DNA of 64,000 bases. Origin: Pseudomonadota bacterium (lineage in GTDB: Bacteria > Desulfobacterota > Binatia > UBA9968). The notes beneath the pieces were generated by a model. The model was not told the origin of the DNA. It did no database searches and worked only from the letters and a program-made list of their open reading frames with translations. Shown here piece by piece: positions 14,712 through 24,162 of this stretch (its first letter is position 1; every line of letters starts with the position of its first letter). Where the stretch lies: assembly GCA_021324155.1 (NCBI GenBank), contig JAJPJQ010000038.1, positions 83,904-147,903 of the forward strand, given 5' to 3'. The position numbers were made by a program, and so were the translations under genes.

Positions 14712-15389
14712 ATGCCGGCCGGACGGTCTGTGCGTCTGAGGTCTTGGTCTTTTCTGTGCCTAGTCATTGTGTGCGCGCTCGGCTGCGGCCCCGAAGCCGT
14801 GGCCCCGCCGGCGGTGCCGAAGCCGCCCGAGAAGCCGACCGCGGAAAAGCCGCTAACGAGAGCCGAACGCCCCCAGTGGAGAGTCGGCTACCAGTGGCAA
14901 TATGCCTGGACCGATCCCTCGGGCAAAGGAACGGTGGTGAAGGAAATCGTGCGCGAGGAGTCTTTCGACGGTATTCCCGGCTACGTCGTGAGGCGTGGCG
15001 CGAGCGAAGACTTTTACACGAAAGATACCCTCGGGCTGCTCGCGACGATGTCCGGCGCGCGCATCACCGTCAGGCGCAGCGCGCCGTTCCAGGCGCTGTC
15101 GTGGCCGATGGAAGTCGGAAAAGAATGGACGAATTCCTACGTCGTGCAGCGGGAGGGCGAAAAAGCCTCGGAGACGCAGGTGAGCCGCGTCGTCGTGAGC
15201 AAAATCGAGCGCGTCAGCGTTCCGGCCGGCAGCTTCGACGCGTTCAAGACCCAGATCTATAACACCCGCACCGCGATGCTGTTGAACGAATACTGGTACG
15301 CGCCGGCGGTCAAATGGTTCGTCAAGTCCCGCGTTTACAATCCGGAAGGCGTGCGCGAGGAGGAGCTGTCGAGCTTCAAGCTCGACTAG
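14712..15389 (+). CDS. Lipoprotein with uncharacterised ~170-aa domain (WxVGYQW...WYAPAVKWFVKS...FKLD), paralogous to the C-terminus of the 20176-21558 product
   Basis: RBS GGAGGTGG. Lipobox VIVCALGCG. Domain shared with the gene at 20176. Confidence 0.6.
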   Translation: MPAGRSVRLRSWSFLCLVIVCALGCGPEAVAPPAVPKPPEKPTAEKPLTRAERPQWRVGYQWQYAWTDPSGKGTVVKEIVREESFDGIPGYVVRRGASEDFYTKDTLGLLATMSGARITVRRSAPFQALSWPMEVGKEWTNSYVVQREGEKASETQVSRVVVSKIERVSVPAGSFDAFKTQIYNTRTAMLLNEYWYAPAVKWFVKSRVYNPEGVREEELSSFKLD

Positions 15390-15397
15390 AGGCCGGC

Positions 15398-15892
15398 ATG
15401 AGCGTCTTGCGAAGAAGATCGGATCTCGAGGACCTGTTAACGCCCCGGCGCAGTCACCGCGGCGTGAAAATCGCCGCCGTGTGCCTGGGGCTTTTGATCG
15501 CGCTGATGTGGTACTTTCATTCGCCGCGCGCGCCCGAGGCGCCGAGCCCGGCGCCGGTCGCTGAGCCCTCGGCAGCGCCGCCGAAGCCGGCGCCGCCGCC
15601 GCCAACCGCGCCGCCGGCTTCGACGCCAGAACCGGTTCGAGAACCCGCTCCCGAGCCGCCGCCGGCGCCGGCCGCGAAAATCATACCCGAGGCGGTCAAA
15701 CCGCCGCCGGCGAAGACGGCTTCGGAACCGCTGCAAAAAAAATCGCCGCCGGCGTCAACCGAGACGCGCCAGAAAGCGCCGCCGCCGAAGTCCGTGCCCA
15801 AGCCTGCGCCGGCAAAAACACCCGCGGCGCCGGCGGCGGAATCCCCGCCGCCGGTGCGCGAATCGGACCGACCCGACAGCGATGCGGGTTGA
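15398..15892 (+). CDS. Membrane-anchored proline/alanine-rich low-complexity protein
   Basis: Internal ATG MSVLRRRSD. One TM (IAAVCLGLLIALMWYF) then ~130 aa of PAPxPP-type low complexity. No C-terminal globular domain. Confidence 0.45.
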   Translation: MSVLRRRSDLEDLLTPRRSHRGVKIAAVCLGLLIALMWYFHSPRAPEAPSPAPVAEPSAAPPKPAPPPPTAPPASTPEPVREPAPEPPPAPAAKIIPEAVKPPPAKTASEPLQKKSPPASTETRQKAPPPKSVPKPAPAKTPAAPAAESPPPVRESDRPDSDAG

Positions 15893-15898
15893 CGCTGG

Positions 15899-16435
15899 TT
15901 ACGGATGGACGATGAGATCCGGACCGGCGAGAAAAGCGAAAATGGAAAAAATTGCGATTCTAACCAACCAGCCGATGAGGCAGACGCCGACGGCCCGCCC
16001 GGTGCTCGTGTAGTCGAGCGCCTGGCGCACGGCGACGACCATCGCGACGAGCATCCAGATCGACGCGACGGTAAAGACAACCACCATCAGTCCGGGAATG
16101 ATGCCCAGAAGGAGCAGCACGCCCGGCGAGCTGGAGAAGCCCGTCGTGCGCAGCAGCTCGCCGACGTTGGCGCGCGTCTGCGGCTCGGGCAGAAGCTTCG
16201 TGCCGATGAAGTACGTGAGATAGGCCCAGATATACCAGGCGATCAGCGCACCGACCGCCCCGAGCACCAGCCCGAGAATACCGCCCTCGCCTGCGCTGCC
16301 GATGCCGGCGCAGACGCTGGAGACGACGACCACGGCCATCGCCTGGCCGAGCGCGGCCTCGTCGGCCTCGACCTCCTCGTAAAGCGTCGCATCCAGCTTG
16401 GCCGCGCGCACCGCGCGATCGACAAGTCCGTCCAT
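15899..16435 (-). CDS. Yip1-domain family integral membrane protein
   Basis: 178 aa. N-terminal acidic region then 5 TM segments, Yip1/DUF1282-like topology. Confidence 0.65.
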   Translation of the reverse strand: MDGLVDRAVRAAKLDATLYEEVEADEAALGQAMAVVVVSSVCAGIGSAGEGGILGLVLGAVGALIAWYIWAYLTYFIGTKLLPEPQTRANVGELLRTTGFSSSPGVLLLLGIIPGLMVVVFTVASIWMLVAMVVAVRQALDYTSTGRAVGVCLIGWLVRIAIFSIFAFLAGPDLIVHP

Positions 16436-16509
16436 GCCGCGGTCTATATTGCGCTACGGCGCGCGATGTCAAGCGCGTGACGACGCGCGCAACCGCCAGC
16501 TCTGAACGA

Positions 16510-17794
16510 TTATTTCTCGAATGCGCCGATGTCGCAGCCGCCGCCCTGAGGGCGCGTCGTGCCGCGCTGATCGGTCGCGGGACAGTCCGCGTCGGCCGGC
16601 GCTGCGTCGATCGCCGGGCTGCCCGGATTGAGCGCATGGGTGAGCGTCGCCCCGCCGTTGTCGGCGAGAGGAGCGAGGATGCTACCGATCATCACCCCTG
16701 TTGTGGGAACGATGTCGGAAACGTCAGGAGTAAATCCGACCACGCCCGGATCATTGTTGACGCCGAAGACATTTAACTGGTCATCCGTAATCATTATATA
16801 ATTGTGGAGAGGTACGTCGGAATATATCTCGGCACCCGAAAAACGCTTGATTCCCGGAGACGATGCTGCGGGTGATAGCGAGTTGGGTGAACGCGTGTGA
16901 GCCTCCGACTCCTCCGGTTTTATCGTTTCAAATCCCGCCCCCCTCGGTCGCGCTATTGCCGGTGATGGTGCTGTTCTCGATCGTGAGATAGTGTTGATTG
17001 GTTACGCCGCCGCCATACCCATAGCCGCCTTTTCCCGGTATTGATTGGTTGCCGGAGATCGTACTGTTCAAAATTTTTGTAAAACCGCCGTTAAAGAAAC
17101 CACCGCCATGGCCGTTTTTGTTCGATCCTCCGATTGCCGAATTGCCGGAAATGGTGCTGTTCTCGACTAGGAGGCTCGTGCCGAAAGTGTCAATTGCACC
17201 GCCGAAGCCGCTAGCACCGGTTCCACTCGTAGCTTTGTTAGCTGAAATCGTACTGTTCCGAATGATGGCATCCCCGCCGTTCAGCGCGATGGCTCCTCCG
17301 ACGCCAGTTCCGCCCTTAAAACCGGTAGCGCTATTTACGGAAACGATACTATCGACAATGCCAATGTAGCCACCCCGGCCGTAAATTGCGCCGCCGGCGG
17401 CTGAGATGTTAGACATTCCGCCTCTGACTTTATTACCGGAGAGGGTGCTGTTTTTGATTGTAACAGTGCCGTCGAAATTACTAATTGACCCGCCATAAAT
17501 CGCCAGATTGCCGGAGATCGTGCTGTTATTAATACTGATCGTTCCAGTATTTAATATTGCTCCGCCATCGAGAGCCGTGTTGCCGAAAATACTGCTATGA
17601 TCAATAATGAAGAAGCCAGTAGACGCGTTGTAGATCGCCCGACCATCGACCGTGTCGGAATTGCCCGATACCATAGTATTAAAAAGTGTAGTGTTACCGC
17701 CGATATCATCCCATGTAAAACATTGCCGGTTTACCGCAATAACGTTTCCGCTAATCAACAAGACCTTATATTGATGGAGAATGATGCCGGTCAC
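16510..17794 (-). pseudogene. Degenerate fourth copy of the beta-helix/choice-of-anchor-Q family: N-terminally truncated, internal TGA stop and frameshift
   Basis: ORFs 16928-17794 (beta-helix repeats NSTISGN...) and 16510-16794 (LADNGGATLTHAL...CPATDQRGTTRPQGGGCDIGAFEK) are separated by an in-frame TGA at 16928-16930 and a 1-nt frame change near 16795-16800. There is no N-domain, hydrophobic segment or CSLREA motif. Confidence 0.65.
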
Positions 17795-18020
17795 AAACGT
17801 TCCCGTCTTTGTGCCTCATTTGCTTATACTTATGCGAAGGTGATTTCCGGTTTGCGGCAGGTTAATGCATTTGGCGGTCGGAAGTTGGTTAGTTGACAGC
17901 GCCGTCCATCACACGACCGCCTGCCGGCATGCATGCCTGCTCGCCGCGCGGATCGTGCGATTTAAAGAAAAGATGTCAGGGCGGATATGGCTAGGACCGG
18001 GCGCTCGCGCCGCCGGCCGC

Positions 18021-18722
18021 TCAAAGCCCGCGGCGGGCCGGGAGCTCCTTCATGCGCTCGAGCACCTCGTCGAGGTGCATGACGTCGGCGTATTTGTGAT
18101 GGAGATCGAAAAGCGACACTTTGTGCGAGAGAGGGCTCCGGTCGAACACGCACTCCTCTACCACTGTGGTATGGAAGCCGTTGGAGTAGGCGTCGACCAC
18201 GCTCGCGCGCACGCAGCCGCTCGTCGACTCGCCGCAGACAATCAAGCTGTTGACGCCCAGCATCGTTAGATTCGCCGCCAGCGGCGTGCCGTAAAAGCCG
18301 CTCGCGCGCTGCTTGTGGATCACGAGATCGCCCGGCTCGGGGCGAAACGCTTCATAGATTTCCATCCCGTCCGGGGCTTTCTTTTTCTCCTGCCGGTTGG
18401 TCGCGCGCACGCGCCCGGGCCGCGCGTCGGGGCGCGTCTCGCCGCGCGTGTAGATCACCGGCAGCCCGAGCGCCCGCGCGGCGGCGAAGAGCCGCTTGGT
18501 CGGCTCGATCGCGTTCCACGCGTATTCGCCGCAGGCGCTCGGGAATTGTTTCACGACTTCGCGCACCGGCAGCGCGCCGCCTTCGTAAACGAGATTGTAA
18601 AGATCGATCGCGAGCAGCGCCGGCCGGTCGCCGATGTAGGTATCTCTTTTATAGTGGCGGTAAATCTCGAGCAGCTCTTCGTCGACGATGTCTTTCCAGC
18701 AGTGGTCTTCGAATCGATCCAT
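18021..18722 (-). CDS. Isochorismatase-family cysteine hydrolase
   Basis: Start at internal ATG MDRFEDH with RBS GGAGGA. Conserved LIVCGESTSGCVRASVVDA motif of the isochorismatase family. Confidence 0.75.
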   Translation of the reverse strand: MDRFEDHCWKDIVDEELLEIYRHYKRDTYIGDRPALLAIDLYNLVYEGGALPVREVVKQFPSACGEYAWNAIEPTKRLFAAARALGLPVIYTRGETRPDARPGRVRATNRQEKKKAPDGMEIYEAFRPEPGDLVIHKQRASGFYGTPLAANLTMLGVNSLIVCGESTSGCVRASVVDAYSNGFHTTVVEECVFDRSPLSHKVSLFDLHHKYADVMHLDEVLERMKELPARRGL

Positions 18723-18838
18723 GTTTCCTCCGCGAAACCGTTCCGGTGTATATCTATGCGCGGGCCGCGACTCTGTCAACCTTCGTTTGACTCCATCGCG
18801 GGTGAAACGTATGTTTGCCCGAGAGAGGAATAATCGAC

Positions 18839-20131
18839 ATGGCCCTCAACAAGGAACTGGCGCAAAAAGTGCTCGCCGAGATCGACCGCGACGAATTGGC
18901 GCGGCTCGGCTGCGATCTCGTCAATCTCCCGAGCCCGACCGGGCAGGAAAAAGCGGTCGCGGAATTCATTCTCGACTGGTTCAAAGCGAACGGTCTCAAG
19001 CCGGTCCGGCAGGACGTCGAAGTCGACCGGCCCAACGCCGTCGGCGTGCTCAAGGGCGACGGCACCGGGGTGAGCCTCGGCTTCAACGGCCACATGGATA
19101 CGAGCTTCACCGGCACGGCGGAGGATCTCCGCATGGTCGCCGACATCGAGCCCGACGAAATGCTCAAGGGCTCGATCGCCGGCGACAAAGTGCGCGGCCT
19201 CGGCATCTCGAACATGAAAGGCGGCGTCGCCGCTTTCATGATCGCGGCCAAGGCGCTCAAGAAGAGCGGTGTCAAGCTCAAGGGCGACGCCGTCTTCGCG
19301 GCGGTCGTCGGCGAGATTTCGCGCACGCCGATCGGCCCCTGGCAGACGAAAGAATATCGCGGCGAAGGCGCCGGCACGCGGCATTTGCTCACGCACGGCA
19401 TGCACACCGACTATGCCGTCGTCGCCGACGGCTCGGACATGAACATCGTCTGGACGCAGACCGGAGTCGTGCAGCTCAAGATCACGACGTTCGGCAAGGC
19501 GGAAGCGGCCTGGGGCAGCAAGCGCGCGACGCATCCGATGGAGAAGCTCAACGCGATCGTCAAGATGACGAAGATCATCGCCGGCATCGAGAAATGGGCC
19601 GAGTGCTTCGAGGAGCGCTACATCTACAACTCCCCCACCGGCCCGCTGTTTCCGAAGGTCAACATCGGCGCGATCGAAGGCGGCGCGCCGTACCGGCCGA
19701 ACTATTTTCCCGGGGTCTGCAGCATCTACGTCGACATCCGTATGCCGCCGCAGGTGCGGCCGGTCACGATCCAGCACGAGGTGGAAAAAACGCTCGCGGC
19801 GCTGGGAGTGGAATACGACCTCGACATCTACAAATCGCTGCTGGGACACGAGGGCAAGGGCGTCGAACCGCTCGTCGAATCGCTCGAGCAAATCCATCAG
19901 CATCTATTCGGATCGAAGCTCCGCTTCGAGGCGCCCGACCGCGCGAGCATCTGGACCGACACCAACGTGTACAACGAGCTCGGCATCCCGGCCGTCAAGG
20001 TCGGTCCGCGCGGCCGGCGCATCGGCCCGCGCGCCGAAGAGATCGACGTCGCCGAGATGGTGAAAGCGGCGCAGATCTACGCGCTCGTCGCGCTGGACAT
20101 CTGCAGCCGCGAGCGGCCGCGCTCGGCCTGA
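18839..20131 (+). CDS. M20-family metallopeptidase / deacylase (ArgE/DapE-like)
   Basis: Start MALNKELAQ with RBS GAGAGGAA. GFNGHMDT and GxSNMKGG M20 motifs. Confidence 0.8.
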   Translation: MALNKELAQKVLAEIDRDELARLGCDLVNLPSPTGQEKAVAEFILDWFKANGLKPVRQDVEVDRPNAVGVLKGDGTGVSLGFNGHMDTSFTGTAEDLRMVADIEPDEMLKGSIAGDKVRGLGISNMKGGVAAFMIAAKALKKSGVKLKGDAVFAAVVGEISRTPIGPWQTKEYRGEGAGTRHLLTHGMHTDYAVVADGSDMNIVWTQTGVVQLKITTFGKAEAAWGSKRATHPMEKLNAIVKMTKIIAGIEKWAECFEERYIYNSPTGPLFPKVNIGAIEGGAPYRPNYFPGVCSIYVDIRMPPQVRPVTIQHEVEKTLAALGVEYDLDIYKSLLGHEGKGVEPLVESLEQIHQHLFGSKLRFEAPDRASIWTDTNVYNELGIPAVKVGPRGRRIGPRAEEIDVAEMVKAAQIYALVALDICSRERPRSA

Positions 20132-20175
20132 AATCCGTGAAGCACCGCGCCGCGCGCGCTTTAAGAATCCCGAGC

Positions 20176-21558
20176 ATGACCACGTTGTCGTCGAGGCGCT
20201 TTGGCTGGCTCGCGTTGTGTCTCGCGCTCGCGGCCCCAGGCTGCTCCGCGCAACCGCCGCGCATCGTTTCGATTTCGAATCCATCCCCGTTCCGTCCGCG
20301 TAGTCCGCTGCAGGTAAAAACGCTGGAAGAAGCGCTGGCCGCGATCGTCACCGTGTGCACGACCGACCTCGAACTTCCGCCCGTGCAGCCATTACACGTG
20401 GAGCTTTATAGCGACCCGGAGAGCTTCGCCGAGGCCACGGAGCACCTCACCGCCGGGCGGTCGGACGCACCGGAGCACAAGGGCACGTTCTCTGTGGCTC
20501 TGCCGTACGAAAATCGTCTGCATGTCAACATGGCCAGCATACGCGGGCAGCCGCGCGGCCCGCTGCTGCGCCTTTTGGCGCATGAATACGGCCACAATAT
20601 CGAATACGTCGTGGCTGGGTCGCGAACCGCTCCGCGATGGGTGAGCGAAGGCTTCGCCGAGTGGGTCGCGGCCAAGGTCGTGGACGCGCTCGGATGGGAG
20701 AGCTATGCCTCATCGCTCGGCCGCGCGGAGCGCGAGCTCATGCGCTACGACTTCGAGCCGCCGACGCTGCCGCAACTCGAGACCGCCGCCGGCTGGACCC
20801 GGAGCTCCCAGATGCCGAAAGGCCGGGTCGCCACTTACGACCTTGCATTTTTCGCCGTCGACAAGCTGATCGAGAAAAAAGGCTCCGCCGCGATGATGGA
20901 TTTTTTTGCCGACAAGGACTTCCAGACGGCGTTCGGCGTCTCGCCGGGCGATTTCCAGCGCGCCGTCGCGGCCGACCTGGAGACGGCGTACAATGCCACC
21001 GCCATCCTCGGCAAAAGATTCTCGGCGGAGAAACCGGAATGGAAGGTCGGTTATCAGTGGCGCTATGCGCTTCAGGCGCCCGGTCTGAAAGGCGCCGCGC
21101 TCGTGTCGAACGAAGTCGTGCGCGAGGAAGTCTTCGAAGGCGTTCCCGCCTACGTTCTATCGGCCGGGAACAAGGAATATCCGCATGAAAAAGCGACGCT
21201 CGCCGTCCTCGCTACGGTCTCCAACGGCAAAGTCGTCATCAAAAACTCGCCGCCCTCGCTGACGCTCGCTTGGCCGCTCGAGGTCGGCAAACGCTGGCAA
21301 AACCAGTACACGATCCAGGATGTCGAGGACAAGCAAAGCGCGAAAATCAATACCGAAGTTATCGTCGGCGACTTCGAAATCGTCCGCGTGCCGGCCGGAT
21401 CGTTTCCGGCCTTCCGCATCGAAACCTACACATCGCCGGGCGGCGAGCTCATCTCCGATCAATGGTACGCGCCCGCCGTCAAGTGGTTCGTCAAGTCGAA
21501 ATTTTACCGTGAGGACGGCGTCGTCGAGCAGGGCCTCGCCGCATTCAAGCTCGATTGA
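20176..21558 (+). CDS. Lipoprotein with Peptidase_MA-like HExxH domain (LLAHEYGHN...WVSEGFAEW) fused to the uncharacterised domain shared with 14712-15389
   Basis: Signal/lipobox MTTLSSRRFGWLALCLALAAPGCS. HEYGH plus a downstream Glu (gluzincin-like). C-terminal 170 aa paralogous to the 14712 lipoprotein. The long upstream ORF extension (18688-) is a high-GC frame artefact. Confidence 0.65.
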   Translation: MTTLSSRRFGWLALCLALAAPGCSAQPPRIVSISNPSPFRPRSPLQVKTLEEALAAIVTVCTTDLELPPVQPLHVELYSDPESFAEATEHLTAGRSDAPEHKGTFSVALPYENRLHVNMASIRGQPRGPLLRLLAHEYGHNIEYVVAGSRTAPRWVSEGFAEWVAAKVVDALGWESYASSLGRAERELMRYDFEPPTLPQLETAAGWTRSSQMPKGRVATYDLAFFAVDKLIEKKGSAAMMDFFADKDFQTAFGVSPGDFQRAVAADLETAYNATAILGKRFSAEKPEWKVGYQWRYALQAPGLKGAALVSNEVVREEVFEGVPAYVLSAGNKEYPHEKATLAVLATVSNGKVVIKNSPPSLTLAWPLEVGKRWQNQYTIQDVEDKQSAKINTEVIVGDFEIVRVPAGSFPAFRIETYTSPGGELISDQWYAPAVKWFVKSKFYREDGVVEQGLAAFKLD

Positions 21559-21625: not shown

Positions 21626-22333
21626 TTAAGGGATATCCGCTTGCGCGGCGGCGCTCATGATCTCGCCTTTCTGCTGGCCTGTGATCACCTTCGCCTTCTT
21701 CAGCACGTTGGTCGCGTGCGCGACGCAGCTTACGAACTGACCGTGATTTTTCGGCGTGCCGGTATTGCCAGGACCGCCGGGACCCGGTTTGCCTGGCTTG
21801 CCGTTAGGGCCGCCCTTGGGCTTTTTCAACGCTGCCTGCGTGCCTGGCGTGACGCCGGCGCAAGCCTGAATCGTCGTCGCAAGCGACTCGGCGAGGCTGC
21901 AGCCGGTGGGAAGAATCGTATCGCCGAAACCCGATAGCGTGATATCGCCGATCACAAGATCGCCGCCCTCGATCGTCGCAGGGCACTGGTCGACGCCGTT
22001 GGCGACCCCATCGCCGTCGCAGTCGGCCGCAGCATCGAGGTTATTACAGGTGTCGCTCCCATTGGGGATGCCGTCGTTATCGCAGTCGGCCAGCGGGTCC
22101 AGGTTATTGCAGGTATCGTTGCCGTTAGGAACGCCGTCGCTGTCGCAGTCGGCCGCCGGGTCGAGGTTGTTACAGGTGTCGGTGCCGTTCGGTATACCGT
22201 CGTTGTCGCAGTCGGCCGCCGGGTCTAGTGGGTCGCACGTGGTGACCTGAGCCCGGACCGGCATCGGCCGATAGCCGACAAATAGCGCCAGCAGTAGCGC
22301 GCTTAAAACCCTGATTACTTTCTTGCTCGCCAT
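21626..22333 (-). CDS. Secreted calcium-binding protein with four thrombospondin type-3-like repeats
   Basis: Start MASKKVIRVLSALLLALFVG (RBS GGGAGGTG). 4x 21-aa repeats DP(A/L)ADCDNDG(I/V)PNGxDTCNNL. The C-terminal Gly/Pro-rich region contains the only GPxGKPGKPGPxG collagen-like tripeptide run in the window. Confidence 0.7.
   Translation of the reverse strand: MASKKVIRVLSALLLALFVGYRPMPVRAQVTTCDPLDPAADCDNDGIPNGTDTCNNLDPAADCDSDGVPNGNDTCNNLDPLADCDNDGIPNGSDTCNNLDAAADCDGDGVANGVDQCPATIEGGDLVIGDITLSGFGDTILPTGCSLAESLATTIQACAGVTPGTQAALKKPKGGPNGKPGKPGPGGPGNTGTPKNHGQFVSCVAHATNVLKKAKVITGQQKGEIMSAAAQADIP
21976..22234 (-). repeat. Tandem 63-bp coding repeats (x4) encoding TSP3-like repeats
   Basis: Near-identical nucleotide repeats GTCGC(T/A)GTCGCAGTCGGCCGC...GGTGTC visible on the plus strand. 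Confidence 0.6.
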
Positions 22334-22545
22334 AATCCGCACCTCCCGAAAGTGGTATTGCTGCGAGGGAAGTGAAAGCACGATTTATGCCGGGACATCG
22401 GGTGTTGAAAGTCGGCCGTAAAGCGCGCTATTACACCATATTTTTCGCGCAAAATTTTGAGATCGAGGCGCAAAAAGGCGTCAAGGCGGGCATACAGTGT
22501 AGGGTTCGATTCTCCAATGAATGGGAAACCCTACAGATGACGCAT

Positions 22546-24162
22546 TTAGGGATCAACGGGATCAGGCCGAGAACGCACAAAATGAAGCGGCAGGATTTTT
22601 CCCCTCGGGCTCGCGTATGGCGCCTCGCGGCTGATTCTGAAAGTACCCGCTTCGGCCCAAATTTTCGTTTGGAATGCATTGCCTCGCTGCCCGCGCCCGA
22701 GTTCTTCCCGCAATCGTGTCAAAAGCCGCCGCTCGTCGATCCCCGACACGACGGGATGGACGCGCAGCGTTAGGCGCGTCTGTCCGCCCGCGTCTTCTTC
22801 CTCGACGAGCTGATAATCGCCGGGCGCGCCGCCGAATTCGCGGGGCAGCTCGCTTTCGAAGAAATCGTGCAGGTCGCCGTAAAAGTAATTCATGCCTTCG
22901 CTGGTGAATTTCTCGTAGCTGCGAATGTGGTGCAGGTGTAATTTCAGGCCCACCCGCTCGAATGCGCAGCCGCAGTTTCTAGTTTCGAACGTCGCATAGT
23001 CGCCGTTGGCGACGTTCAGGAGCAACTTGGCGTATCCGTCGTGAAGCGTCGTGCAAAGAAGCCGCGGCATGCGCGATGCGCCCCCTTCGATCGAAACAGG
23101 AAACGCAATGACCGCCAGCCGATGTTGCTGCACATGCATGTCATCTACATGACCCGGGTTCGCGCATGCCATCGCTACCGAGCCGCCGCCTTCGAAGGCA
23201 TAATCCGTCACGGCAGCGGCGCCGACGCTCGCGATGGCGGCGCGCTTCGCTTCGGTAAAAGGCTCGCCGCCAAGATGAAATTTCGTGCCCTCGATAGCGA
23301 TGCCCTTTTGTCCCGCCGCTTTCGCGATTCTCGTCGCGTTGCTGGCGCTGGTCTTGATGCAGCAGTTTCTTCCATTCCGTTTCACTTCGTTGATCCAGGC
23401 GACGATGCGGTCGACCTCCTCCAATGAGGTAAACTCCGGCCTTGCGGCGCCGGGACCATAGATATTGGCCATCGCGATAAAGAGATGCGTCATGCAAGTA
23501 TTGTAAAGCCGCGAGGCGCTGTTGCTCGTCGGCATACGACGCGCAAACCAGCGCTCTGTCGGGATACCGAGACGCGCGTGCTGCACGATCGCGCGTATCC
23601 CTCCGCCCGAGGGTAGAATCGCCTCGAAGATACCGTGAGCGCGGGAGAAAAGATCGTGCGCGGAATAAAATAAACAATGCGAAGACGTCCGTTCGCCCCA
23701 GCGCTCGAGCGAGCCGACCGACGCGATCGGCGCATTGTTGGTCCCGCTGCTGCGCGTGGTCACGCCCACGGACGGCGCGGGCGGCGCGAAATCGCTCGGA
23801 GAGACCCGAAACGACAGGCTTCCTCGGACAACATCGGTTTTTCCCTTGAACTCATCCGCCATGAAGTACACGCCTTCTTTCGCGAGCTTCTCCAGACTCT
23901 CTTCCACGCCGTCGCGCATGACCGCGTCTCTCAGATCGCCGAGTCCACAGCCCGCCATCTTGAATAGCTTGAGGTATGGGCTTCTCGGCCAATCGAAAAT
24001 GTGTCGCTGCGCCAGGTCGAGAAATCTCTCTGCGCGCGATGCGAGCGCGAGGCGGACCGCGGCCTCCGCTTGTTCGATGGTCACGCGTTGACGGAAAAAA
24101 GCGGGTAGCGCCCGGAGCAGGCGGTAATTCTGTTGGATGCGACTTTGCAGATCGTTAGTCAA
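22546..24162 (-). CDS. Putative adenylate-forming enzyme, PaaK/CapK/F390-synthetase-like (family assignment tentative)
   Basis: 538 aa. TTG start preceded by AGGTGG. SSGT-containing segment and overall size fit PaaK-like ligases. No firm motif match is possible by eye. Confidence 0.45.
   Translation of the reverse strand: MTNDLQSRIQQNYRLLRALPAFFRQRVTIEQAEAAVRLALASRAERFLDLAQRHIFDWPRSPYLKLFKMAGCGLGDLRDAVMRDGVEESLEKLAKEGVYFMADEFKGKTDVVRGSLSFRVSPSDFAPPAPSVGVTTRSSGTNNAPIASVGSLERWGERTSSHCLFYSAHDLFSRAHGIFEAILPSGGGIRAIVQHARLGIPTERWFARRMPTSNSASRLYNTCMTHLFIAMANIYGPGAARPEFTSLEEVDRIVAWINEVKRNGRNCCIKTSASNATRIAKAAGQKGIAIEGTKFHLGGEPFTEAKRAAIASVGAAAVTDYAFEGGGSVAMACANPGHVDDMHVQQHRLAVIAFPVSIEGGASRMPRLLCTTLHDGYAKLLLNVANGDYATFETRNCGCAFERVGLKLHLHHIRSYEKFTSEGMNYFYGDLHDFFESELPREFGGAPGDYQLVEEEDAGGQTRLTLRVHPVVSGIDERRLLTRLREELGRGQRGNAFQTKIWAEAGTFRISREAPYASPRGKILPLHFVRSRPDPVDP

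What the first reader, a model, noticed from the sequence alone, without database searches (positions are those of the whole stretch)
14712..21558. Two lipoproteins share an uncharacterised ~170-aa domain; one is fused to a Peptidase_MA-like HExxH module
The 14712-15389 product and the C-terminal third of the 20176-21558 product align end to end. The first reads WRVGYQWQYAW...LSWPMEVGKEWTNSY...VSVPAGSFDAFKTQIY...EYWYAPAVKWFVKSRVYNPEG...ELSSFKLD. The second reads WKVGYQWRYAL...LAWPLEVGKRWQNQY...VRVPAGSFPAFRIETY...DQWYAPAVKWFVKSKFYREDG...GLAAFKLD. I cannot assign the domain to a known family. In the second protein it follows a lipobox and a gluzincin-like domain (HEYGHN ... WVSEGFAEW, as in Peptidase_MA_2). 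That suggests a substrate-binding or targeting domain for a cell-envelope protease, with a stand-alone paralog nearby. The two genes bracket the decayed beta-helix copy, the Yip1 protein, the isochorismatase-like hydrolase and the M20 peptidase. The stretch therefore reads as an envelope-remodelling accessory block.
Basis: seen in the sequence. Interest (0 to 1): 0.55.

Follow-up and report, generated by a model that had tools for sequence, protein, structure and literature searches.

The report
Shared barrel domain, two envelope lipoproteins
Two predicted lipoproteins of an uncultured Binatia bacterium share a soluble 12-stranded beta-barrel of the poorly understood DUF3108/YmcC type, in one case fused to a zinc protease; in metagenomes the same barrel is attached to three unrelated kinds of protease, which suggests a binding or targeting module, but nothing about its function has been tested.

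Summary
Protein A (14712-15389) and the C-terminal 177 residues of protein B (20176-21558) are 47% identical (E 1e-55). Both start with a signal peptide and a lipobox.

Among the 150 best cluster representatives, the barrel occurs alone, in tandem, or C-terminal to three unrelated protease types: this HExxH module, retropepsin-like aspartic proteases and M48. It is also found with TonB_C and Sel1/TPR. This supports a portable recognition or targeting module.

The "envelope-remodelling block" is not supported. A and B lie in two separately conserved blocks that are apart in at least three related genomes. One block is A plus a Pro-rich membrane protein. The other is isochorismatase, M20 and B.

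The family is uncharacterised and seen only in uncultured bacteria, mostly Binatia. Interest is moderate.

The parts
14712..15389 (+). Gene A: 225-aa lipoprotein made of a signal peptide with lipobox, a Pro-rich linker and one barrel domain
   Evidence: ORF and translation. The same gene is called in the public record. GGAGG lies 8 nt upstream of the ATG.
14712..14786 (+). Signal peptide and lipobox of A (…LVIVCALG-C25)
   Evidence: Read from the sequence.
14862..15386 (+). Barrel domain of A (residues 51-225): 12-stranded soluble beta-barrel, DUF3108-like with the YmcC fold
15398..15892 (+). Pro-rich bitopic membrane protein, starting 8 nt after A's stop; the conserved partner gene of A
   Evidence: The A + Pro-rich pair is kept in all A loci, even where the flanks differ. 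The N-terminus with its TM segment and the C-terminal RESDRPDSDAG are conserved. No Pfam match.
18839..20131 (+). M20/M25/M40 peptidase with no signal peptide, 44 nt upstream of B on the same strand; conserved neighbour of B
   Evidence: PF01546 and PF07687. Isochorismatase(-)/M20(+)/B(+) is kept in six genomes.
20176..21558 (+). Gene B: 460-aa lipoprotein made of a gluzincin module and a barrel
   Evidence: Translation. About 50 orthologue clusters at 34-89% identity share the architecture. The AF2 model has pLDDT 90.2 and pTM 0.87.
20176..20244 (+). Signal peptide and lipobox of B (…LALAAPG-C23)
   Evidence: Orthologues have canonical lipoboxes.
20248..21015 (+). Gluzincin-type metallopeptidase module (residues 25-280)
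20581..20595 (+). HEYGH zinc-binding and catalytic motif (H136, E137, H140)
   Evidence: H136 and H140 are present in 45/45 family members and E137 in 43/45.
20638..20664 (+). WVSEGFAEW, with E158 as the predicted third zinc ligand
   Evidence: W155, E158, G159, F160, A161 and W163 are invariant in 45/45. The motif aligns to WLNEGF of M1 enzymes.
21025..21555 (+). Barrel domain of B (residues 284-460), paralogous to A's

Best explanation
B is a lipid-anchored, extracytoplasmic zinc metallopeptidase. Its N-terminal module is a gluzincin (HExxH plus a Glu 18 positions after the second His, on an M1-like thermolysin-type fold). It belongs to a family that has not been curated. Its C-terminal 177 residues form a soluble 12-stranded beta-barrel, a divergent branch of the DUF3108-like / YmcC-fold group, which is related in fold to LolA. 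I infer that the barrel is a non-catalytic recognition module. It would bind a protein partner or another envelope ligand, and so determine where or on what the attached protease acts. A is a stand-alone copy of that module on a lipid anchor. It most likely works with the Pro-rich bitopic membrane protein encoded 8 nt downstream. A and B are old paralogues (47% identity) in separate conserved gene blocks, not parts of one operon-like unit. Shown: the homology, the conserved active-site residues, the predicted folds, the fusion repertoire and the synteny. Inferred: peptidase activity, envelope location, and the binding or targeting role of the barrel.
For: The homology is far beyond chance.

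Protease module:
- The catalytic residues are invariant or nearly so across 45 family members at 34-89% identity: H136, Y138, H140, W155, E158, G159, F160, A161 and W163 in 45/45, and E137 in 43/45. Position 221 is Tyr or His in 44/45, at about the spacing of the M1 catalytic Tyr (my comparison from memory).
- The family profile aligns to the M1 HExxH...WLNEGF helices.

Barrel:
- Both models are confident (pLDDT 95.9 and 90.2).
- The best structural matches are DUF3108-like or YmcC-fold lipoproteins. After them come envelope proteins: EipB, GfcB, LmcA, RseB/MucB and LolA/LolB.
- PF21347 or PF11306 are the only Pfam families seen on the barrel anywhere in the family.
- The one sequence-level PDB hit is 4FVS, at the shared VPAGTF...WYxP motif.

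Module behaviour:
- Architectures among the 150 best cluster representatives: 76 barrel only, 39 HExxH + barrel, 13 retropepsin + barrel, 4 tandem barrels. Further fusions are M48 + barrel, barrel + TonB_C and barrel + Sel1/TPR.
- The fused proteases keep their catalytic motifs: DTG in P0055 and HEIAH in P0119.
- About half of the representatives have a lipobox-like N-terminus.

Precedent: GfcB/YmcC is an outer-membrane lipoprotein that binds partner proteins GfcC (KD ~0.1 uM) and GfcD (PMC8592465).

Gene pairing: A and the Pro-rich gene stay together in every A locus, even where the flanking genes differ.
Against: - No activity, localisation or ligand has been measured for any member. Every homologue is a 'hypothetical protein' from a metagenome.
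- Neither window protein passes a curated family threshold.
- Fusion to proteases is seen in about a third of the sampled representatives. Many barrels are stand-alone genes among unrelated neighbours, so a protease-independent role is equally possible for those.
- The search profile included the protease module. This inflates the share of HExxH + barrel proteins in the sample.
- pTM 0.87 suggests the two domains of B pack in a fixed orientation. That would also fit a purely structural cap. I could not inspect coordinates or the interface.
Confidence: 0.6

Rival explanations
1. The barrel is a LolA-like carrier of hydrophobic ligands, such as acyl chains of lipoproteins, LPS or another glycolipid. 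On this reading B and the other fusions are proteases that act on lipid-anchored substrates, and A is a lipid or lipoprotein chaperone.
Confidence: 0.2
2. The barrel in B is a structural cap or autoinhibitory lid over the active-site cleft, like the extra domains of M1 enzymes. On this reading the stand-alone A has an unrelated role, or acts as an inhibitor in trans.
For: The high pTM (0.87) of the two-domain model implies a fixed interdomain arrangement. M1-type enzymes enclose their cleft with accessory domains (established knowledge).
Against: The same barrel, still 35-55% identical, is attached to retropepsin-like and M48 proteases and to non-enzymatic TonB_C and Sel1 modules. It also occurs alone and in tandem. 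A lid fitted to one catalytic fold would not transfer like this.
Confidence: 0.1
3. One reading: genes 14712-21558 form one envelope-remodelling accessory block bracketed by the two paralogues.
For: In this genome the two genes lie 4.8 kb apart. Some genes between them encode membrane or secreted-looking products (Yip1, beta-helix ORFs). In the closest relative (DASWZY), both contigs end in the stretch between Yip1 and the isochorismatase gene, so the same layout may exist there.
Against: TctCBA/HhH-GPD/A/Pro-rich/Yip1 and isochorismatase/M20/B are each conserved on their own. In the DATDFN and CAZNES genomes, the 10 kb upstream of B carries PhoD and ABC-transporter genes and no A. In ENA contig k141_641120, no B lies within 8 kb after A. 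M20 and the isochorismatase-like protein lack export signals (sequence). The beta-helix ORFs are absent from the other A loci.
Confidence: 0.05
4. The barrel is an outer-membrane-embedded 12-stranded beta-barrel anchor, as DUF3108 proteins have been described in passing.
Confidence: 0.03

Closest known systems
DUF3108-like / DUF3108 (Pfam PF21347, PF11306); structures 4FVS (BDI_3050) and 3FZX (BF2203, 'YmcC-like fold')
   Different: Sequence identity is only ~14%. The window proteins score below the Pfam cutoffs. In the PDB records the Bacteroidales proteins are ~212-214-residue chains. Here the barrel is a mobile module fused to proteases. No function is known for either.
GfcB / YmcC (E. coli group 4 capsule lipoprotein, PDB 2IN5)
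   Different: There is no detectable sequence similarity and no gfc-type capsule genes are nearby. GfcB is not known to be fused to enzymes.
EipB (DUF1849, PDB 6NTR), RseB/MucB, LolA/LolB, LmcA
   Different: Their topologies differ (open 11-14-stranded half-barrels or spirals with helical plugs). There is no sequence relationship. Their ligands are lipids, acyl chains or RseA.
M1-family aminopeptidase catalytic domain (PepN, LTA4H, ERAP1, tricorn factor F3)
   Different: B has no GxMEN motif as such (the sequence is PYEN, with E in 30/45 and N in 36/45). It lacks the M1 N-terminal beta-sandwich and C-terminal helical domains. PF01433 matches are only sub-threshold (best E 8e-4). B is a 250-residue module on a lipid anchor.
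BepA (M48 protease + TPR domain)
   Same: Offered as an analogy only: an envelope metalloprotease whose non-catalytic domain recognises substrates or partners (established knowledge). One relative of the barrel is fused to an M48 module.
   Different: The accessory domain is of a different kind (TPR versus beta-barrel), and there is no homology to B's catalytic module beyond the zincin core.

Membership tests
DUF3108-like (Pfam PF21347) / DUF3108 (PF11306) | Score at or above the Pfam gathering cutoff (27 bits for PF21347, 26 for PF11306) | tested here: inconclusive
   A scores 24.3 bits, E 3.4e-5, just below the cutoff. B gives no hit at E <= 1. A's orthologues P0068-70 and P0074 carry a precomputed PF21347 assignment. 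P0107 scores 29 bits, above the cutoff. Of 45 B-family members, 18 hit at E <= 0.1.
DUF3108-like (Pfam PF21347) / DUF3108 (PF11306) | YmcC-like beta-barrel fold, as in 3FZX and 4FVS | tested here: met
Gluzincins (MEROPS clan MA, subclan E) | HExxH plus a third-ligand Glu on the following helix | tested here: met
   H136, H140 and E158 are invariant and E137 is present in 43/45 members. There are 17 residues between H140 and E158 here; many orthologues have one more, as the gap in the window row of A1 shows. The motif aligns to HExxH...WLNEGF of M1.
Gluzincins (MEROPS clan MA, subclan E) | Thermolysin-like catalytic fold | tested here: met
Gluzincins (MEROPS clan MA, subclan E) | Zinc-dependent peptidase activity | not testable with these tools
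   Needs biochemistry.
Peptidase family M1 (PF01433) | GxMEN exopeptidase motif, Pfam cutoff, and the N-terminal beta-sandwich and C-terminal helical domains | tested here: not met
   The sequence is PYEN instead of GxMEN, with E in only 30/45. PF01433 hits are sub-threshold only, in 16/45 members, best E 8.3e-4. The protein has only a ~250-residue catalytic module.
Peptidase_MA_2 (PF13485) | Match to the family HMM | tested here: not met
   The family is not listed for B at E <= 1, nor for any of the 45 family members at E <= 0.1.
Bacterial lipoproteins | N-terminal signal peptide ending in a lipobox with an invariant Cys | tested here: met
   A has ...VIVCALG-C25 and B has ...ALAAPG-C23. B's orthologues have ...AGCS...LGCS and ...TGCS. 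Pro at position -2 in B is atypical. Lipidation itself was not tested.
LolA/LolB/RseB superfamily | Open half-barrel with a helical plug and a hydrophobic cavity; family HMM match | tested here: inconclusive

The most novel reading that the evidence does not exclude
The DUF3108-like barrel is a portable adaptor for regulated envelope proteolysis. It would recognise a specific peptide or envelope ligand and deliver it to whichever protease it is fused to (gluzincin, retropepsin or M48). One possible ligand is the conserved acidic C-terminal tail (…RESDRPDSDAG) of the Pro-rich membrane protein that always accompanies A. Stand-alone copies such as A would then act as competing or regulatory receptors. 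This would give a first function to the DUF3108 group and define a substrate-recruitment system that has not been described.
Probability: 0.15. Interest if true: 0.6.

Novelty: new variant of a known kind. Interest (0 to 1): 0.35.

Why it matters
DUF3108-like, YmcC-fold proteins are widespread envelope lipoproteins with solved structures but no known function. The same barrel is repeatedly fused to three mechanistically unrelated proteases with intact catalytic motifs. This gives a concrete and testable lead, a recognition or targeting module. It also gives a tractable test protein: B is a single 460-residue chain whose activity can be compared with and without the barrel. The work also adds an uncurated gluzincin family and a first look at envelope protease architecture in Binatota, a phylum with no cultured members that I know of. 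The value is limited because everything rests on sequence and predicted structure from metagenomes.

Tried and rejected
- The Pfam and NCBIfam scans of A and B gave only sub-threshold hits.
- The first profile for the 1.84-billion-protein search came out with 433 positions, because the long rows outweighed the short ones. The hit counts (3210 / 676 / 157) therefore mix protease-only and barrel-only relatives, and they are not a clean census of the barrel.
- The third homologue search used a barrel-only profile. It returned only unnamed metagenomic proteins and added no taxa or fusion partners.
- The sequence search of the PDB with barrel profiles gave only one weak hit (4FVS, E 0.12).
- The neighbourhoods of three more distant stand-alone barrel genes showed no recurring partner.
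- The promoter and terminator scan found no more sites than in shuffled sequence, so it says nothing about operon structure.
- Literature searches for DUF3108, YmcC and LolA-like protease fusions found no functional study of this family.
- I considered a membrane-embedded barrel and rejected it on strand composition.
- I could not examine the interdomain interface or any cavity, because model coordinates are not exposed.
Full report
**Observation**

The two ORFs are as described. A is 14712-15389 (225 aa) and B is 20176-21558 (460 aa). The public record of the same contig, a Candidatus Binatia MAG (GCA_037025705.1), calls the same genes (taxonomy). A residues 51-225 align to B residues 284-460 with 47% identity over 177 columns and E 1e-55, reaching both C-termini. 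An HMM of the domain finds these two copies and no other in the six-frame translation of the window.

Both proteins begin with a signal peptide and a lipobox: ALG-C25 in A and APG-C23 in B. B's orthologues have canonical boxes. A GGAGG sequence 8 nt upstream supports A's start codon.

**The shared domain**

Pfam places A just below the cutoff of DUF3108_like (PF21347): 24.3 bits against 27, E 3.4e-5. Across the family the evidence is consistent:
- Several A orthologues carry a precomputed PF21347 assignment.
- 18 of 45 B-family members hit it weakly.
- 14 of 69 diverse relatives hit PF21347 and 10 hit DUF3108.
- No other Pfam family is seen on this region.

Foldseek agrees and adds 3FZX, the 'YmcC-like fold' protein. 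A diverse barrel profile hits only 4FVS among PDB sequences (E 0.12), at the shared VPAGTF…WYxP motif.

**The protease module**

It is a gluzincin, but it fits no curated family:
- Peptidase_MA_2 never appears.
- Peptidase_M1 appears only below threshold, in 16 of 45 members.
- A partly conserved E-N (30/45 and 36/45) sits 24 residues before HExxH, where M1 has GxMEN.
- Position 221 is Tyr or His in 44 of 45 members, at about the spacing of the M1 catalytic Tyr. That comparison is from memory and is not tested.

Whether the enzyme is an exopeptidase or an endopeptidase cannot be decided.

**Distribution and fusion partners**

The B architecture is found in about 50 clusters at 90% identity. 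The few that carry a name are Binatia MAG proteins, and the rest are unnamed.

A scan of one genome per species found 20 loci. They are mostly Binatia, or MAGs labelled Syntrophobacteraceae or Deltaproteobacteria. More distant copies occur in Verrucomicrobiia, Rokubacteria, and alpha- and gammaproteobacterial MAGs. That scan depends on two peptide patterns, so it gives a lower bound.

A profile search of 1.84 billion representatives gave 3210 hits at E <= 1e-3. The profile covered both modules, so this is not a clean count of the barrel. Among the best 150 representatives the architectures were:

| Architecture | Count |
|---|---|
| Barrel only | 76 |
| HExxH module + barrel | 39 |
| HExxH module only (mostly fragments) | 14 |
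| Retropepsin-like aspartic protease (PF13650/PF13975) + barrel | 13 |
| Another N-terminal module + barrel | 4 |
| Tandem barrels | 4 |

One of the 13 retropepsin fusions also carries that N-terminal module. Single examples, which the architecture scan counted as barrel only, are M48 + barrel, barrel + TonB_C and barrel + Sel1 or TPR.

The fused proteases keep their catalytic motifs: DTG in P0055 and HEIAH in P0119. Three unrelated catalytic scaffolds carry the same barrel at their C-terminus. This is the main argument that it is a portable recognition or targeting module, rather than a lid fitted to one enzyme.

**Gene context**

The bracketing arrangement is particular to this genome and perhaps its closest relative. 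Two blocks are conserved separately:
- TctCBA(-), HhH-GPD(-), A(+), Pro-rich(+), Yip1(-).
- Isochorismatase(-), M20(+), B(+), often followed by a TSP3-repeat gene and a 538-aa ORF.

The second block recurs in six genomes. In these, M20 is 86-96% identical while B is only 47-87% identical.

The evidence that the blocks are separate:
- In DATDFN and CAZNES, the 10 kb upstream of B holds PhoD and ABC-transporter genes, and A is on another contig.
- In ENA contig k141_641120, no B lies within 8 kb after A.
- In a relative at 53% identity, B lacks M20 altogether.

In DASWZY both contigs break between Yip1 and the isochorismatase gene, so adjacency there cannot be excluded.

The one partner that always travels with A is the gene 8 nt downstream (15398-15892). 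It encodes a bitopic membrane protein with a conserved N-terminus, a Pro-rich spacer and a conserved acidic tail, …RESDRPDSDAG. More distant stand-alone barrels sit among unrelated genes.

**Mechanism**

I commit to the following reading, with confidence 0.6 for the whole statement. B is a lipid-anchored, extracytoplasmic zinc peptidase. Its barrel binds a partner or substrate and so directs the enzyme. A is a free-standing copy of that binding module, paired with the Pro-rich membrane protein.

The structural assignments are well supported. The binding role is an inference from the fusion repertoire and from characterised relatives:
- GfcB/YmcC binds GfcC with a KD of about 0.1 uM and also binds GfcD (PMC8592465).
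- EipB is an envelope-integrity factor (bioRxiv 10.1101/551135).
- RseB gates proteolysis of its bound partner (established knowledge).

The rivals are:
- a LolA-like lipid carrier (0.2);
- a structural cap (0.1);
- a membrane-embedded barrel (0.03).

**Novelty and verdict**

I found no paper on this architecture or on protease-linked DUF3108 domains.

It is a new variant of known kinds: a gluzincin lipoprotein with a DUF3108-like accessory barrel. Interest is moderate (0.35). It offers a useful lead for a DUF, but it rests entirely on uncultured organisms and predictions.

Noticed in passing
window 15398-15892 (+): This is a Pro-rich bitopic membrane protein encoded 8 nt after A's stop, with a GAGG ribosome-binding site. 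It accompanies A in every A locus examined, even where the flanks differ. Its N-terminus (FRRRSDLDDLL plus a TM segment) and its acidic C-terminal tail (RESDRPDSDAG) are conserved. It has no Pfam match.
   Followed up: partly
window 15743: There is a homopolymer difference: A8 in the window against A9 in the GCA_037025705.1 contig. The extra A shifts the frame of the Pro-rich gene in the public record. The window's frame restores the conserved C-terminus seen in orthologues, so the public version looks like an assembly error.
   Followed up: yes
L005 10001-11200 and 11226-12566 (also L006): In one related MAG, two B-type genes lie in tandem directly after the M20 gene. They are 47% and 54% identical to B. 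The family is multi-copy in these genomes; the MAG SMAG_U3751 has at least three loci.
   Followed up: partly
window 18839-20131 versus 20176-21558, compared with L004, L005, L019, L020 and L022: The M20 peptidase is 86-96% identical across genomes in which the adjacent B is only 47-87% identical. B therefore evolves much faster than its neighbour, as is common for surface or envelope proteins.
   Followed up: no
window 21626-22381 (-) and 22546-24162 (-): A secreted protein with thrombospondin type 3 (Ca-binding) repeats and a 538-aa ORF with no Pfam match lie convergent to B. The TSP3 gene follows B in four genomes and the 538-aa ORF in three of them.
   Followed up: no
window 16510-16794 and 16928-17794 (-): The beta-helix-like ORFs have no Pfam match. 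They sit exactly at the junction of the two separately conserved gene blocks and are absent from the other A loci. Contigs of the closest relative break in this stretch, which suggests repeat-rich or variable sequence.
   Followed up: no
proteins P0154, P0159, P0174, P0177, P0179, P0217, P0218, P0230 (metagenomic relatives): A common architecture of about 285 aa combines a lipobox, a ~70-residue module with two conserved Cys (TLAQDLAxERWxxC…W..C), a linker and the barrel. The small module matches no Pfam family.
   Followed up: no
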